Below, piece after piece: positions 15,085 through 22,235 of a stretch of DNA of 32,000 bases (its first letter is position 1; the number at the start of each line of letters is the position of its first letter). The stretch is taken from contig NC_011979.1 in NCBI RefSeq assembly GCF_000022265.1, positions 1,260,001 to 1,292,000 of the forward strand, read 5' to 3'. The notes beneath the pieces were generated by a model. The model worked only from the letters and a program-made list of their open reading frames with translations, ran no database searches and was not told the DNA's origin. The position numbers and the translations under genes are program-made. The DNA is from Geotalea daltonii FRC-32 (GTDB taxonomy: Bacteria > Desulfobacterota > Desulfuromonadia > Geobacterales > Geobacteraceae).

Positions 15085-15393
15085 GTGAAAACATTGCAGG
15101 CCGGATACATCTCTATGGGTCGCCCGGGGAAGGCAATGGCGAGATTTTCTTTGCTCGTGCTGCTGATAATGCTTGCCGTGCTCTCCGGTTGCAGCAAGCT
15201 GACCACGGAAAATTACGAGAAAATCAAGATGGGCATGGACTACGGCGAGGTAGCCGGTATTCTCGGCAAGCCGGACAGCTGTTCCGAGGCGCTTTTTGCC
15301 AAAAGCTGCATCTGGGGCAACGAGCAGAAGAACATCACGGTGAATTTCGTTGGCGACAAGACAATTCTCTTCACCAGCAAAAATATCAGGTAG
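15085..15393 (+). CDS. Small lipoprotein (DUF3862/BLIP-like fold suspected)
   Basis: GTG at 15085 follows a strong RBS, AGGAGGT. An alternative ATG lies at 15136 (MARFSLLVLLIMLAVLSG-C). The lipobox is LSGC. The mature part, ENYEKIKMGMDYGEVAGILGKPDSC, resembles small SmpA/DUF3862-type lipoproteins. Confidence 0.6.
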   Translation: MKTLQAGYISMGRPGKAMARFSLLVLLIMLAVLSGCSKLTTENYEKIKMGMDYGEVAGILGKPDSCSEALFAKSCIWGNEQKNITVNFVGDKTILFTSKNIR

Positions 15394-15445
15394 TCTGGGA
15401 GAGGCTGTAAAAATACGGATTGAGATGACTGTTGAAGGAGTTCGT

Positions 15446-15970
15446 ATGTCATCGGAGCAAGAATCTTTCGAAAGCCTGCCGGAAGTGGGTGGCCGCTGGC
15501 CGGGCTCCTGCTTTGCCTGTTCGGTAGATCATCCCCATGGGCTGCATCTGCGCTTCCGCCACACGGCAGAAGGGGTCGTTTCTAGCTGTGTCGTACCGGA
15601 GCACTACTGCGGCTTCGATGGGATGGTCCACGGCGGCATCATTACGACACTTCTGGACGAGGCATCGGCCTGGGCTCTGATGGCCCGCCACGGCAAACTG
15701 GGCGTGACACGGGAGATGACGGTCCGCTTCCTGAAGCCGGTCCTGACAGGGCAGGAGCTTACAATCGAAGCCTGCATCGTCGAATTCGACAGCAAAACGG
15801 CTGCCGTGAAGGGTACGGTAAAAAACAGCGAAGGTGAGATCCTTGCTGAAAGTTCCTGTTCCTGGGCTTTTCCGCGGTTATCGCGCATTGCCGGGCTGGC
15901 CGGGGTGGAGGAGCAGCGACTGCAGGCTTTTCTCGACGATTGTCGGCTGCCGGGCGATGGTGGTAAATGA
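15446..15970 (+). CDS. PaaI/4HBT-family hotdog-fold thioesterase
   Basis: The preferred start is the ATG at 15446, after GAAGGAG. Motifs: CFACSVDHPHGLHLRF and GMVHGGIITTLLDEASAWAL. Confidence 0.75.
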   Translation: MSSEQESFESLPEVGGRWPGSCFACSVDHPHGLHLRFRHTAEGVVSSCVVPEHYCGFDGMVHGGIITTLLDEASAWALMARHGKLGVTREMTVRFLKPVLTGQELTIEACIVEFDSKTAAVKGTVKNSEGEILAESSCSWAFPRLSRIAGLAGVEEQRLQAFLDDCRLPGDGGK

Positions 15971-16046
15971 AAAATCTGAAGGATTGTTTTGCGTAATGTC
16001 ATGGGAGGTCCCAATGACGGGCCTCGGAAAGAGAGGGGATAGAAGA

Positions 16047-17492
16047 ATGATGAATCAGAAGCAGACAGCGTATTTGAAGGAATGGCAGGGCTATGAAGGA
16101 TTAGCCGAGCAGATGCTGCCCATAATCGGCAGACTTTACCGTGACCATAACGTGGTGACCACCGTCTATGGCCGTTCGCTGGTCAACACCTCCACTATCG
16201 ATATTCTCAAGGCCCATCGTTTTGCCAGGCTTATTCTGGACGGAGAGCTGACGGTTGTGGATACTTTTCCCATCCTGGAGGCGGTAGGCAAGCTGGACCT
16301 GGCTCCGGCGCGCATCGACATCGGCAGACTGGCCATTCGTTACCAGGCACAGGCTGGGCAGTTGCCAGTGGACGAATTTCTCCGCCGTGAGCTTGCCCCG
16401 GTAAACACCGGCCGGGTGCCTTTGCTGGATGAGCCGCGGGATATCGTCCTTTATGGTTTCGGGCGTATCGGCCGTCTTTTGGCCCGGATACTCATTGAAA
16501 AGGCGGGAAGCGGTGAAAAACTGCGCATCAGAGCGGCGGTGGTCCGCAAGGGGAGTGCCGGAGACCTGGCGAAGCGTGCCAGCCTTCTGCGTCGTGACTC
16601 GGTCCATGGTCAGTTCCACGGCATCATCACCATCGATGAAGAGGAAAACGCCATCATTGCCAACGGCAACATGATCCGCATCATCTATGCTGACGCTCCG
16701 GAAGATGTGAATTATACCCAATACGGTATTCACAATGCCATTCTCATCGACAACACCGGTAAATGGCGTGATCGGGACGGGCTGGGGCGACACCTGCAGG
16801 CGAAAGGGATTGCCAAGGTCATCCTCACCGCTCCGGGCAAGGGGGACATTCCCAACGTGGTGGCCGGGGTCAATAACGAACTGATTACTGCCGAAGAGAC
16901 CCTGTTTTCGGCCGCCAGTTGCACCACCAATGCCATCGTGCCGGTGTTGAAGGCCGTGAACGACCGCTTTGGCATCGTCAGCGGCCACGTGGAAACCTGC
17001 CACTCCTATACCAATGACCAAAACCTCATTGACAATTACCACAAGGCTTCCCGCCGTGGCCGGAGCGCTCCTCTCAACATGGTCATTACCGAGACCGGTG
17101 CCGCCAAGGCGGTGGCCAAGGCCCTGCCCGAGCTGACCGGCAAGCTGACCGGCAACGCCATCCGGGTGCCGACCCCCAACGTCTCCCTGGCCATACTCAA
17201 CCTGGAACTCAAGCAAGGGGCTACGGTGGAGACTCTGAACGGATACCTGCGCGACATCTCGCTGGAATCGCCACTGCAGAACCAGATCGACTTCACCAAC
17301 TCGCCGGAGGTGGTATCCAGTGATTTCGTCGGTTCCCGCCATGCCGGGGTCGTAGATTCCCTGGCGACTATTGTCCAGGGTAACCGCTGTGTCCTCTATG
17401 TCTGGTACGACAATGAGTTCGGTTACAGCTGTCAGGTGGTGCGCATGGTGCAGAAGATGGCTGGTCTTGAGTTGCCGGCAATGCCCAGCTGA
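16047..17492 (+). CDS. gap: Glyceraldehyde-3-phosphate dehydrogenase, long form with about a 130-aa N-terminal extension
   Basis: The catalytic motif SAASCTTNAIVPVLKAV and the Rossmann motif IVLYGFGRIGRLLARIL (starting near residue 133) are present, as are NAIRVPTPNVSLA and WYDNEFGYS. The start is uncertain: ATG 16047 (RBS GAGGGG, about 481 aa) or ATG 16014 (RBS GGGAGG, about 492 aa). The track start at 15834 overlaps the thioesterase and is unlikely. Confidence 0.85.
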   Translation: MMNQKQTAYLKEWQGYEGLAEQMLPIIGRLYRDHNVVTTVYGRSLVNTSTIDILKAHRFARLILDGELTVVDTFPILEAVGKLDLAPARIDIGRLAIRYQAQAGQLPVDEFLRRELAPVNTGRVPLLDEPRDIVLYGFGRIGRLLARILIEKAGSGEKLRIRAAVVRKGSAGDLAKRASLLRRDSVHGQFHGIITIDEEENAIIANGNMIRIIYADAPEDVNYTQYGIHNAILIDNTGKWRDRDGLGRHLQAKGIAKVILTAPGKGDIPNVVAGVNNELITAEETLFSAASCTTNAIVPVLKAVNDRFGIVSGHVETCHSYTNDQNLIDNYHKASRRGRSAPLNMVITETGAAKAVAKALPELTGKLTGNAIRVPTPNVSLAILNLELKQGATVETLNGYLRDISLESPLQNQIDFTNSPEVVSSDFVGSRHAGVVDSLATIVQGNRCVLYVWYDNEFGYSCQVVRMVQKMAGLELPAMPS

Positions 17493-21730: not shown

Positions 21731-21859
21731 AAATTCCTCTCTTTGAATTAATGTGAACAGGCTAAATAATATCAGCATTTTTTTAAGAATCAATCCCGCA
21801 AATTGTTTTACCTTGAAAGGGAGCTAAAATAGATGGATAAAAGTATAAAGGAGACCACC

Positions 21860-22186
21860 ATGGGAGAAACAGCACGCATTACGGTTTCGGATGCCCACCG
21901 CAGGGTGGAGGAAGGCAAGGCCCTCTTTGTCTGCGCCTATGAAAGCGAAGATGTTTGCAAAGGCATGATGCTGTCGGGGGGAATGTCTCTTGCCCAGTTC
22001 AGGGCGCGCGTTCCATCACTGGACAAGGGGCAGGAAATTATTTTCTACTGTGCCTGACCCACCGAGCACACCTCCGCCGGTCGGGCGGAAGAATACCGGA
22101 AGCAGGGGTTCGTCAATGTCTCAGCTCTGCTGGGTGGAGTCGAGGCATGGAAAAAGGCAGGTTTCGGGGTGCAGAACCAGCGATGA
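21860..22186 (+). CDS. Single-domain rhodanese-like sulfurtransferase with an in-frame TGA at 22055-22057. Candidate selenoprotein, or alternatively a nonsense pseudogene
   Basis: ATG at 21860 follows AAGGAG with a 6-nt spacing (the track start at 21833 is also possible). The track ORF stops at ...EIIFYCA-TGA. The same frame continues for 42 codons, PTEHTSAGRAEEYRKQGFVNVSALLGGVEAWKKAGFGVQNQR, to TGA 22184-22186. This completes a rhodanese fold of about 108 aa. The strong terminator lies only after the second stop. Confidence 0.6.
22071..22091 (+). promoter_or_regulatory. Candidate bacterial SECIS hairpin
   Basis: Stem UCCGCC (22073-22078) pairs with GGCGGA (22084-22089). The apical loop is GGUCG (22079-22083). 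The stem starts 15 nt after the UGA and the loop Gs lie 22-23 nt after it. The GGUC loop recalls the apical loop of E. coli fdhF. Confidence 0.45.
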
Positions 22187-22210: not shown

Positions 22211-22235
22211 GCGGCCTTATGGTCGCTTTTTTTTT
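22211..22235 (+). terminator. Rho-independent terminator after the full-length rhodanese frame
   Basis: GCGGCC (22211-22216), loop ttat, GGTCGC (22221-22226, with one G-U pair), then nine T (22227-22235). Confidence 0.8.

What the first reader, a model, noticed from the sequence alone, without database searches (positions are those of the whole stretch)
21860..22186. Rhodanese gene with an in-frame UGA in the active-site loop plus a SECIS-like hairpin: candidate selenoprotein
The annotated 74-aa ORF ends at ...QEIIFYCA-TGA (22055-22057), exactly inside the rhodanese catalytic loop. The same frame continues without a new RBS or start for 42 codons: PTEHTSAGRAEEYRKQGFVNVSALLGGVEAWKKAGFGVQNQR. 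That is the expected C-terminal half of a single-domain rhodanese (the GG..AW..AG motif). The combined protein is about 108 aa, the normal size. From memory, many small rhodaneses carry a YC-x-CP-x-E loop. Here the second Cys position is the UGA (YCA-U-PTE), which is the Cys/Sec substitution pattern typical of selenoproteins. Fifteen nt after the UGA, a hairpin forms (UCCGCC / GGCGGA) with apical loop GGUCG, resembling the GGUC loop of the E. coli fdhF SECIS. The loop-to-UGA distance of about 22 nt is similar to that in fdhF. The only strong terminator (nine T) lies after the second stop. As I recall, rhodanese-related sulfurtransferases appear in computational surveys of bacterial selenoproteomes, and deltaproteobacterial lineages are selenoprotein-rich. 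A standard gene caller would truncate or split this gene.
Basis: partly seen in the sequence, partly recalled or inferred. Interest (0 to 1): 0.8.

Follow-up and report, generated by a model that had tools for sequence, protein, structure and literature searches.

The report
Selenocysteine rhodanese gene, truncated in annotation
This is a real 108-residue rhodanese gene whose internal UGA almost certainly encodes selenocysteine, guided by a conserved RNA hairpin; this type of selenoprotein is already catalogued, but this branch of it is still annotated as a truncated hypothetical protein.

Summary

- **The gene.** Window 21860-22186 (+) is one gene for a 108-aa single-domain rhodanese. Its loop reads C64-A-U66, with the UGA at 22055-57.
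- **Conservation of the UGA.** Of 83 orthologues from at least eight phyla, 82 carry TGA at this codon and one carries TGG. None carries TAA or TAG. The frame stays open without indels, and the downstream codons evolve like coding sequence.
- **The hairpin.** It lies 15 nt after the UGA (22073-22089: 6 bp, loop GGUCG). It meets every rule of the published bacterial SECIS model, shows compensatory changes at synonymous sites, and is the only consensus structure RNAalifold finds. Resampling synonymous codons gives a stem of 5 bp or more in 12% of cases, against 92% observed.
- **Cys/Sec pattern.** More distant full-length relatives have FYC-x-C-P-x-E. Twelve orthologues also have TGA in place of Cys64 (U-x-U).
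- **Novelty.** CxU rhodanese selenoproteins are already catalogued (NCBIfam NF041203 "rhodanese_LYCAU"; "form 3" in reviews). This FYCAU clade scores only 57 bits against that model's 115-bit cutoff, and its N-terminal half does not match the model. RefSeq calls it a 74-aa hypothetical protein.
- **Not testable here.** The sel genes of this genome, selenium in the product, and the biochemical function.

The parts
21743..21770 (+). Promoter-like site (TTGAAT-16-AATAAT). Weak evidence only.
   Evidence: 9 of 12 consensus matches. Such sites are about as frequent in shuffled sequence.
21848..21853 (+). Shine-Dalgarno sequence AAGGAG, 6 nt upstream of the conserved start codon.
   Evidence: sequence. 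The start position is supported by the orthologue N-termini.
21860..22186 (+). Complete selenoprotein gene: a 108-aa single-domain rhodanese (M1...C64-A65-U66...R108) plus its stop codon.
   Evidence: Pfam PF00581, 30.6 bits; 83 orthologues with the frame intact; purifying selection downstream of the UGA.
21932..21934 (+). Codon for Cys25 (TGC) in the V-C-A-Y motif. This clade-specific Cys replaces the Asp of the canonical rhodanese D-x-R motif.
   Evidence: Cys in 81 of 83 orthologues. alignment to GlpE (C25 aligns with D of D-I-R). (LYCTU relatives keep D-x-R).
22049..22051 (+). Codon for Cys64 (TGT), the canonical rhodanese catalytic cysteine at the end of the central strand. It is TGA (Sec) in 12 of 83 orthologues.
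   Evidence: AF2 model of a Cys-form homologue: strand 59-63, loop 64-69, helix 70-81.
22055..22057 (+). In-frame UGA read as selenocysteine (residue 66).
   Evidence: TGA in 82 of 83 orthologues, TGG in 1, never TAA or TAG. (Cys at this position in CxC relatives).
22073..22089 (+). SECIS hairpin: stem UCCGCC/GGCGGA (6 bp), apical loop GGUCG (22079-22083), 21 nt between the UGA and the loop, -11.0 kcal/mol.
   Evidence: 91.8% paired; pair 33-45 never unpaired, UA56/CG17/UG6/AU1/GC1; 0 of 500 shuffles reach the observed values; frozen synonymous sites; meets the bSECIS rules; RNAalifold consensus; synonymous resampling control.
22184..22186 (+). True stop codon (also TGA), with no SECIS-type hairpin behind it.
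   Evidence: In the orthologues the terminal stop is TGA 42, TAA 32, TAG 9.
22211..22235 (+). Intrinsic terminator (GCGGCC-UUAU-GGUCGC plus a T-run).

Best explanation
Window 21860-22186 is a single functional gene for a 108-residue rhodanese-domain selenoprotein.

**Shown by comparison.** The UGA at 22055-57 is a conserved sense position. The reading frame and protein sequence downstream are under purifying selection. An RNA hairpin at 22073-89 (loop GGUCR), 15 nt after the UGA, is under selection at the RNA level.

**Inferred.** During translation the hairpin binds the C-terminal domains of SelB carrying Sec-tRNA(Sec). This places selenocysteine at residue 66 instead of allowing RF2-mediated termination. 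When that fails, a 65-aa fragment is released.

**Protein anatomy.** The protein has the canonical rhodanese active-site cradle. Cys64 ends the central beta-strand and a six-residue loop (C-A-U-P-T-E) leads into a helix. Sec66 therefore sits two residues after the catalytic Cys.

**Most likely chemistry (inferred, not tested).** Cys64 carries a persulfide, or another chalcogen adduct, as in sulfurtransferases. Sec66 (Cys in the CxC relatives) acts as the neighbouring, highly nucleophilic resolving or relay residue, cycling through a Cys-S-Se-Sec selenenylsulfide. The clade-specific Cys25 is a possible third redox partner.

**Family placement.** The gene belongs to the already catalogued group of CxU rhodanese selenoproteins. 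It sits in a sister clade (V-C-A-Y ... F-Y-C-A-U) that current annotation models miss.
For: 1. In-frame TGA with an open frame on both sides. The joined product is a rhodanese, the fragment is not.
2. 28 of 30 database homologues are 64-74-aa "proteins" that all end at ...FYCA.
3. Of 83 loci from Geobacterales, Acidobacteriota, Nitrospirota, Syntrophia, Planctomycetota, Poribacteria, Rokubacteriota and others, 82 have TGA, 1 has TGG and none has TAA or TAG. Terminal stops are TGA 42, TAA 32, TAG 9.
4. There are no indels: GG..W lies at offset 25 in all 83. Codon-position entropy downstream is 0.65/0.73/1.39 bits, against 0.89/0.73/1.48 upstream. Window versus L004 shows 16 synonymous and 4 non-synonymous codon differences downstream.
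5. Cys/Sec pairs: CxC in full-length relatives, and TGA in place of Cys64 in 12 loci.
6. Hairpin: 91.8% of cells are paired, and none of 500 shuffles reach the observed pairing, covariation score or counts of changed cells and pair types. The synonymous-site pair 33-45 is never unpaired. RNAalifold finds it as the only consensus structure.
7. Third-position entropy is 0.22/0.33/0.09 bits in hairpin codons 7-9 (1.04 in codon 10, whose third base covaries with codon 6), against about 1.8-2.0 in other Ala and Gly codons.
8. After synonymous resampling, a stem of 5 bp or more appears in 11.7% of cases versus 91.6% observed, and a GGU loop in 14.7% versus 90.4%.
9. All four bSECIS model rules quoted in PMC13188914 are met.
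10. The related LYCTU gene L088 has TGA plus a hairpin at the same offset, built from different codons (AGC...CUG).
11. The AF2 model of the Cys-form homologue has pLDDT 89.9 and a canonical cradle. Its Foldseek neighbours are sulfurtransferase rhodanese domains with TM 0.65-0.75.
12. Geobacter species, including G. uraniumreducens, have SelD and FdhA selenoproteins (PMC1794560).
Against: - The Sec machinery of this genome could not be examined. There is no tRNA, sel gene or other selenoprotein gene in the window.
- There is no protein-level evidence.
- Single-sequence folding is not significant, and its MFE prefers a competing helix.
- Four of six Cys-form relatives still have a stem at the same register. 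Part of the stem is therefore either a fossil or favoured by the S-A..A-E peptide. Only the GGU loop is clearly Sec-specific.
- Two metagenomic relatives have TGG (Trp) at this codon.
- The biochemical role is inference only. There are no conserved gene neighbours to constrain it.
Confidence: 0.88

Rival explanations
1. The UGA is a real stop. The gene is a decaying pseudogene, or only the 65-aa N-terminal fragment is made, and the downstream frame is non-functional.
For: Gene callers and RefSeq annotate a 74-aa or 65-aa product. Sec insertion is generally inefficient, so some truncated product is expected in any case.
Against: - The same stop, always TGA, is kept in 82 of 83 orthologues across phyla, with no indels and no second stop.
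- The downstream codons show a coding pattern and an excess of synonymous changes.
- The fragment alone is not a rhodanese domain.
Confidence: 0.03
2. The UGA is read through without selenocysteine, for example by near-cognate tRNA-Trp or tRNA-Cys. The hairpin would act as a generic readthrough or pausing stimulator rather than as a SelB-binding SECIS.
For: - TGG (Trp) occupies the codon in L002 and L087.
- Hairpin stems persist in some Cys-form genes that need no recoding.
- SelB binding was not tested.
Against: - The Cys/Sec alternation at two positions (CxC, CxU, UxU) is the signature of Sec.
- The loop GGUCR, at 21 nt from the UGA, fits the SelB-type consensus, and the GGU is frozen only in the TGA forms.
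- The family is listed among predicted selenoproteins (PMC13188914).
- Trp forms are rare and known only from single metagenome contigs.
Confidence: 0.05
3. There are two separate cistrons: an N-terminal 65-aa protein and a 42-aa C-terminal peptide made by re-initiation after the UGA.
For: None beyond the existence of two adjacent ORFs in one frame.
Against: - There is no start codon or RBS after the UGA.
- The two parts are always in the same frame, without indels, in all 83 loci.
- Together they form one rhodanese fold, with the break inside the active-site loop.
Confidence: 0.01

Closest known systems
NCBIfam NF041203 "rhodanese_LYCAU, rhodanese-related (seleno)protein". [quoted passage not shown] It was first predicted by Zhang & Gladyshev 2005 (bSECISearch), as cited in those reviews.
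   Same: - Single rhodanese domain.
- Sec two residues after the catalytic Cys (Y-C-A/T-U-P-x-E).
- The same ...S-A-G-x-A... segment after the Sec.
- A SECIS hairpin at the same offset (L088).
- It is the best NCBIfam hit for the window protein.
   Different: - The window protein scores 57 bits against the curated cutoff of 115.
- It matches only profile positions 65-125, the C-terminal half.
- Its N-terminal half has V-C25-A-Y where LYCTU relatives keep the canonical D-x-R.
- It is 108 aa against a 126-position profile.
- RefSeq does not recognise it and annotates a 74-aa hypothetical protein.
Bacterial SECIS elements: the E. coli fdhF type and the bSECIS consensus of Zhang & Gladyshev, as summarised in PMC13188914.
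   Same: - A stem-loop in the coding region just downstream of the UGA.
[quoted passage not shown]
- Stem of 4-16 bp (here 6).
- Spacing of 16-37 nt (here 21).
- Free energy at or below -7.5 kcal/mol (here -11.0).
- From my own memory: the fdhF loop is also GGUC, about one codon closer to the UGA.
   Different: - There is no match in Rfam; no Rfam family matched it.
- There is no evidence for a conserved lower helix.
- In the U-x-U variants, one hairpin would have to serve two UGAs 6 nt apart.
Single-domain rhodanese sulfurtransferases (E. coli GlpE 1gmx, YgaP, TSTD1) and the rhodanese domains of persulfide dioxygenase or CoA-disulfide reductase fusions.
   Same: - Same fold (Foldseek TM 0.65-0.75).
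- The catalytic Cys is at the strand-to-loop junction, with a six-residue loop before the helix.
   Different: - Only 14-26% sequence identity.
- A Sec or second Cys at loop position +2, and conserved P-x-E in the loop.
- Asp and Arg of the D-x-R motif are replaced by Cys and Tyr.
- No activity data exist for this clade.
Other rhodanese-type selenoproteins: forms 1, 2 and 4 (UxxS, UxxG) and TsoB (UxxxxU, NF045694), as listed in PMC13188914.
   Same: A rhodanese domain carrying Sec in or near the active-site loop.
   Different: - In those forms Sec heads the listed motif (UxxS, UxxG).
- Here the catalytic Cys is usually kept and Sec is at +2.
- The match to TsoB is marginal (15 bits).

Membership tests
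Bacterial SelB/SECIS-dependent selenoprotein gene | In-frame UGA with the ORF continuing in the same frame and homology on both sides. | tested here: met
Bacterial SelB/SECIS-dependent selenoprotein gene | The UGA is conserved in orthologues and aligns with Cys in homologues (a Cys/Sec pair). | tested here: met
   (TGA in 82 of 83; Cys64 is TGA in 12 loci). (CxC relatives).
Bacterial SelB/SECIS-dependent selenoprotein gene | [quoted passage not shown] | tested here: met
   (6 bp, GGUCG, 21 nt, -11.0 kcal/mol; 70 of 83 orthologues reach -7.5 or lower). Covariation. Controls.
Bacterial SelB/SECIS-dependent selenoprotein gene | selA, selB, selC (tRNA-Sec) and selD are present in the same genome. 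| not testable with these tools
   The window has no tRNA and no sel gene. Only literature on the genus is available (PMC1794560: Geobacter species have SelD and FdhA selenoproteins).
Bacterial SelB/SECIS-dependent selenoprotein gene | Selenium is present in the full-length product. | not testable with these tools
   Requires 75Se labelling or mass spectrometry.
Rhodanese homology domain (Pfam PF00581) | Profile score above the gathering threshold. | tested here: met
   30.6 bits against 22.2, for the joined protein only.
Rhodanese homology domain (Pfam PF00581) | An alpha/beta fold with the catalytic Cys at the start of a six-residue loop between the central strand and a helix. | tested here: met
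   (AF2 model of Cys-form homologue P0181, pLDDT 89.9: E59-63, loop 64-69, H70-81). (PDB neighbours are all rhodanese domains).
NCBIfam NF041203 rhodanese_LYCAU (equivalog) | A C-A/T-U motif in the active-site loop. | tested here: met
   (F-Y-C-A-U).
NCBIfam NF041203 rhodanese_LYCAU (equivalog) | Whole-protein HMM score at or above the curated cutoff (115 bits) over the full profile. | tested here: not met
   57.1 bits, profile positions 65-125 of 126 only. The U-x-U orthologue scores 55.4 bits.
Cdc25/Acr2-type CX5R phosphatase or arsenate reductase | Arg at the end of the CX5R loop. | tested here: not met
   The loop is C-A-U-P-T-E followed by H-T. The position after Glu is A, H or G in orthologues (codon 4).

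The most novel reading that the evidence does not exclude
The V-C-A-Y ... F-Y-C-A-U clade may be a distinct selenoprotein subfamily, not yet recognised by annotation, rather than a peripheral NF041203 member. It would have a three-chalcogen active site: Cys25 (replacing the D of D-x-R), Cys64 and Sec66. It would also include natural U-x-U variants in which two selenocysteines 6 nt apart are decoded with one SECIS hairpin. Neither a U-x-U motif nor this clade appears in the 2026 catalogue (PMC13188914: no occurrence of "UxU"; rhodanese form 3 is listed with one Sec).
Probability: 0.35. Interest if true: 0.5.

Novelty: new member of a known kind. Interest (0 to 1): 0.3.

Why it matters
**Annotation.** The practical value is a correction. 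At least 207 species-representative genomes in the scanned collection, and dozens of protein clusters, carry this gene as a 64-74-aa "hypothetical protein". In some records it is mistranslated with W for UGA. A dedicated profile plus the hairpin rule (TGA, 15 nt, 5-7 bp stem, GGUCR loop) would fix these calls.

**Biology.** The gene adds a well-supported, very small selenoprotein to Geotalea/Geobacter and to Acidobacteriota, Nitrospirota and other lineages. Its 83-sequence alignment makes an unusually clean natural SECIS data set. The CxC, CxU and UxU series in one active-site loop offers a simple system for asking what Sec contributes next to a rhodanese catalytic cysteine. It does not change what is known about recoding.

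Tried and rejected
- **Long helix containing the UGA** (UGCCUGACC/GGUCGGGCG, the MFE). It is 83% paired, its percentage paired is barely above the shuffle mean (83.1% versus 82.3%), and it has few compensatory changes. It breaks, without compensation, where Pro67 is replaced. Rejected as a conserved structure. The UGACC:GGUCR complementarity remains unexplained.
- **Rfam.** There is no family at the site or anywhere in the window.
- **Gene neighbourhood.** All-against-all clustering of flanking ORFs in 83 loci found no conserved partner. The two largest clusters were shadow ORFs overlapping the gene itself. Context therefore gives no functional clue.
- **Sec machinery in the fetched sequence.** There is no tRNA-Sec in the window or in any of the 81 loci scanned (L003-L082 and L086). 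A scan of all loci for other in-frame TGA plus GGUC-loop hairpins returned only chance hits.
- **Cys-form genes as a negative control for the hairpin.** The result was ambiguous. Four of six keep a 6-7 bp stem, and only one keeps the GGU loop. The synonymous-codon resampling control replaced this test.
- **Structure of the window's own joined protein.** No coordinates are returned, so the Cys25-Cys64-Sec66 distances could not be measured.
- **Source organism.** The exact protein is on record only in one Logan assembly (SRR29904085). The closest named genome is Geotalea toluenoxydans JCM 15764 (96% identity).
- **CX5R arsenate reductase or phosphatase reading.** Rejected, because the loop has no Arg.
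Full report
**1. What is in the sequence**

- On the + strand an ORF starting at ATG 21833 ends ...QEIIFYCA at a TGA at 22055-57. The same frame then runs for 42 further sense codons to a second TGA at 22184-86.
- The only terminator-like site is a GC-rich stem at 22211-22226 followed by a T-run, after the second stop.
- The joined translation passes the Pfam Rhodanese threshold (30.6 bits, cutoff 22.2). The 74-aa fragment matches no family.
- On its own the local RNA is not unusually stable. The 66-nt segment folds no better than shuffled sequence (z = -0.30). Its minimum-energy structure is a different helix that pairs UGCCUGACC, including the UGA, with GGUCGGGCG.
- The case therefore rests on comparison across orthologues, not on thermodynamics.

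**2. Start codon**

- Homologues begin M-[GA]-E-x-x-R exactly 65 codons before the stop.
- In Geotalea sp. SG265 an in-frame stop lies just upstream of that Met.
- The conserved start is therefore ATG 21860, preceded by AAGGAG at 21848-53.
- The product is 108 residues, with the UGA at residue 66, Cys64 two codons before it and another Cys at residue 25.

**3. Homologues truncated at the same spot**

- A word-indexed search of about 5.8 billion proteins with the joined sequence (Sec replaced by Cys) returned 30 hits. Of these, 28 are 64-74-residue "proteins", 48-95% identical to the query, that all end ...FYCA (one ends ...FFCG and one ...FYCV). The best is a "hypothetical protein" of Geotalea toluenoxydans.
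- Two hits were full length with Trp at the critical position. For P0004 the DNA has TGA, and the caller had used a code in which TGA is Trp. For P0008 the DNA really has TGG.

**4. Orthologous loci**

- A scan of one genome per species for 185,579 bacterial and archaeal species found 207 relatives. The best 80 were fetched.
- They come from Geobacterales (Geotalea, Geobacter, Geomonas), other Desulfuromonadales, Syntrophales and Syntrophobacterales, Acidobacteriota, Nitrospirota and Thermodesulfovibrionia, Planctomycetota, Myxococcota, Poribacteria, Rokubacteriota and Abyssobacteria.
- The closest is G. toluenoxydans JCM 15764 (96% amino-acid identity).
- Together with the window and the two metagenome contigs this gives 83 sequences.
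- At the window's UGA position, 82 have TGA, one has TGG, and none has TAA or TAG.
- The genes' real terminators are TGA 42, TAA 32 and TAG 9.
- There are no indels between the UGA and the GG..W motif in any sequence (offset 25 in all 83). Apart from the second TGA in the U-x-U variants (section 5), no sequence has another in-frame stop.
- Mean entropy per codon position in the 35 codons after the UGA is 0.65/0.73/1.39 bits. This is the same coding signature as upstream (0.89/0.73/1.48).
- Against Geotalea sp. SG265 the downstream 38 codons differ at 16 synonymous and 4 non-synonymous codons. Against G. toluenoxydans the figures are 2 and 0.
- This excludes a pseudogene, and it excludes two independent cistrons.

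**5. Cys/Sec pattern**

- An exhaustive HMMER search of 1.84 billion cluster representatives, using a profile of the two full-length hits, gave 3,475 hits at E of 0.001 or better.
- Among the best 150, many full-length relatives read FYC-x-C-P-x-E (CxC). Others have CxS or CxD. Several "CxW" or "WxW" entries are TGA translated as Trp; P0031 even reads through the true stop.
- In 12 of the 83 loci the Cys64 codon is also TGA, giving U-x-U. Ten of these are Acidobacteriota; the other two are Thermodesulfobacteriota or "delta" MAGs.
- Alternation of Cys and TGA at two neighbouring active-site positions is the classical signature of selenocysteine.

**6. The hairpin**

In the gap-free alignment A3 (TGA = columns 13-15):

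- The pair formed by two synonymous third positions (columns 33 and 45) is UA 56, CG 17, UG 6, AU 1, GC 1, and is never unpaired.
- None of 500 column shuffles reach the observed percentage paired, covariation score, number of cells changed on both sides or number of further pair types. For the number of pairs with a change on both sides, 31 of 500 shuffles do. Registers slid by one to three columns fall to 26-59% paired.
- RNAalifold, run without guidance, returns the core of this hairpin as the only consensus structure.
- Third-position entropy collapses in the hairpin codons: Ala7 0.22, Gly8 0.33 and Gln/Arg9 0.09 bits. Other Ala and Gly codons of the same genes show 1.75-1.99 bits.
- The loop is GGUCA in 39, GGUCG in 33 and GGUCU in 3 sequences. 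[quoted passage not shown]
- As a control I kept each peptide and resampled synonymous codons from the genes' own usage:

| Feature | Resampled | Observed |
|---|---|---|
| Stem of 5 or more contiguous bp | 11.7% | 91.6% |
| Both synonymous-site pairs complementary | 15.2% | 100% |
| Loop starting with GGU | 14.7% | 90.4% |

- The window hairpin (6 bp, 5-nt loop GGUCG, 21 nt from the UGA, -11.0 kcal/mol) satisfies all four constraints of the published bacterial SECIS model. Those constraints are a 3-9 nt loop, a 4-16 bp stem, G in the first two loop positions, 16-37 nt spacing and a free energy of -7.5 kcal/mol or lower (PMC13188914).
- The competing long helix that contains the UGA is 83% paired. 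That figure is barely above the shuffle mean (82.3%), the helix has few compensatory changes, and it breaks without compensation where Pro67 is replaced. I do not regard it as a conserved structure.

**7. Caveats on the hairpin**

- Four of its six pairs are fixed by the conserved peptide S/A-A-...-A-E/A.
- Four of six Cys-form (CxC) relatives whose DNA I could fetch still have a 6-7 bp stem at the same register. One of them uses quite different bases (UCGGCG/CGCCGA). Their loops, however, are GCCCG, AGCGU and GGCGU, and only once GGUCA.
- This fits either fossil SECIS elements after recent Sec-to-Cys changes or a stem that has some value of its own. Six sequences cannot decide between these.
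- What is clearly tied to TGA is the frozen GGU in the loop.
- In the single orthologue with TGG (L002) the stem has an A·C mismatch.
- A second TGG case (L087) belongs to the related LYCTU group and keeps its hairpin.

**8. The protein**

- AlphaFold2 on a Cys-form homologue (P0181, with 14 relatives aligned) gave pLDDT 89.9 and pTM 0.84. It shows strand 59-63, loop 64-69 and helix 70-81. This is the canonical rhodanese cradle, in which the catalytic Cys ends the central strand and six loop residues precede the helix.
- HMMER alignments to 6mxv and GlpE place Cys64 on the catalytic Cys.
- The best Foldseek matches in the PDB are all rhodanese domains of sulfurtransferase type, with TM 0.65-0.75: 6mxv, 3tp9, the persulfide dioxygenase fusion 5ve5, GlpE 1gmx, YgaP and TSTD1.
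- Sec66 is therefore loop position +2. Pro67 (67 of 83) and Glu69 (81 of 83) are conserved.
- There is no Arg closing the loop, so a CX5R phosphatase or arsenate reductase is unlikely.
- Cys25 is conserved in 81 of 83 sequences. It aligns with the Asp of the usual D-x-R motif of rhodaneses, which the LYCTU relatives retain.
- No conserved gene neighbours exist, so the gene looks monocistronic.

**9. Mechanism**

- *Shown:* a conserved UGA, a conserved downstream frame, and an RNA hairpin under selection.
- *Inferred from established knowledge of bacterial Sec insertion:* SelB·GTP·Sec-tRNA(Sec) binds the hairpin loop as the UGA enters the A site, and inserts Sec in competition with RF2.
- *Inferred for the enzyme:* Cys64 accepts a sulfane sulfur, or a selenium or other electrophile, as in sulfurtransferases. 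Sec66 (Cys in the relatives, and both residues Sec in the U-x-U forms) attacks it or forms a selenenylsulfide with Cys64, speeding transfer or release. Cys25 may complete a relay. This part is a hypothesis and I hold it with modest confidence.

**10. Relation to what is known**

- Rhodanese selenoproteins have been predicted since 2005.
- The 2026 catalogue lists five rhodanese forms. One is "form 3, NF041203, CxU, one Sec", credited to Zhang & Gladyshev 2005 (PMC13188914). The 2022 review calls it "COG0607 form 2 (CxU)" (PMC9312934).
- Against NCBIfam the window protein's best hit is indeed NF041203 "rhodanese_LYCAU". It scores only 57.1 bits against a 115-bit cutoff and matches only the C-terminal half of the profile.
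- LYCTU-type relatives score 88-94 bits over the whole profile, even with W at the Sec position.
- L088 of that group has TGA and a hairpin (AGCGCC-GGUGC-GGCGCU) at the same offset, made from different codons.
- The window gene therefore works like, and is clearly related to, the known CxU rhodanese selenoproteins. It belongs to a sister clade (V-C-A-Y ... F-Y-C-A-U) that the equivalog model, and hence RefSeq annotation, does not capture.
- The U-x-U variants are not mentioned in the catalogue.

**11. What could not be done**

- The sel genes of the source genome could not be examined. The window contains none and no tRNA. The fetched loci contain no tRNA-Sec.
- The exact protein is on record only in one read-archive assembly.
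- Literature shows that Geobacter species, including G. uraniumreducens (now Geotalea), have SelD and FdhA selenoproteins (PMC1794560).

**12. Verdict**

- Novelty is low to moderate: a new, mis-annotated member or sister clade of a known predicted selenoprotein family.
- The side observations (U-x-U forms, TGG forms, persistent stems in Cys forms) may merit a short follow-up.

Noticed in passing
L038, L048, L056, L058, L059, L062, L069, L073, L076, L079, L081, L082 (for example L048:6190-6198): Twelve orthologues have TGA-x-TGA (U-x-U): the catalytic Cys64 codon is also TGA. A single hairpin lies 21 nt from one UGA and 27 nt from the other. This double-Sec rhodanese motif is not in the 2026 selenoprotein catalogue.
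   Followed up: partly
L002:1822-1824 and L087 (about 514-516): A genuine TGG (Trp) sits at the Sec position in two metagenome contigs. One is in the FYCAU clade and its hairpin carries an A·C mismatch. The other is in the LYCTU clade and its hairpin is intact. These could be sequencing errors, Sec-to-Trp loss events, or evidence that Trp is tolerated.
   Followed up: partly
Proteins P0004, P0031, P0071, P0119: Public gene calls translate the TGA codons of this family as Trp (CxW, WxW). P0031 even reads through the true TGA stop into 75 spurious residues. An alternative genetic code was evidently applied to ordinary bacterial contigs.
   Followed up: partly
L083, L084, L085, L089, L090, L091: Cys-form (CxC) relatives often keep a 6-7 bp stem at the SECIS register (4 of 6), but with other loops (GCCCG, AGCGU, GGCGU). 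L090 keeps the stem using different bases. This may be a fossil SECIS or a second role for the stem.
   Followed up: partly
window 22051-22059 with 22079-22087: The UGA plus the following Pro codon (UGACC) is complementary to the SECIS loop GGUCR. The resulting 9-bp helix would sequester the UGA and excludes the SECIS hairpin, and it is the single-sequence MFE. There is no covariation for it, and its significance is unknown.
   Followed up: partly
P0048 (L090:501-1259) and P0167: The rhodanese module also occurs fused behind a PA2169/DUF2383 four-helix-bundle domain. This is seen both as a CxC form and as a form truncated at FYCA, which is presumably the Sec form.
   Followed up: no
L056:6963-7036: A tRNA gene (Rfam 48.6 bits) has an anticodon arm one nucleotide short, and ARAGORN cannot name it ("tRNA-???"). 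It lies about 650 nt downstream of a U-x-U rhodanese gene in an Acidobacteria MAG. It may be an assembly indel or an unusual tRNA.
   Followed up: partly
L063 (from 6196): In this Nitrospiraceae MAG the frame after the Sec codon stays open for 163 codons instead of about 40. This suggests a lost stop or a C-terminal fusion.
   Followed up: no
window 15834-17492 (+): This mechanical 552-aa ORF has GAPDH domains only from residue 203 onward. The real start is probably about 600 nt downstream. The overlapping ORF 15350-15970 was not examined.
   Followed up: no
window 1-32000: The surrounding genes are unrelated housekeeping or regulatory genes: PolX/PHP, a PLP decarboxylase, Cu/Zn SOD, a TauE exporter, Fe-ADH, an acyl-CoA ligase, an MBL hydrolase, PEBP, FkpA-type PPIase, a hybrid histidine kinase, GMP reductase/IMPDH and Dus. 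There are no selenium- or sulfur-trafficking partners next to the rhodanese gene.
   Followed up: yes
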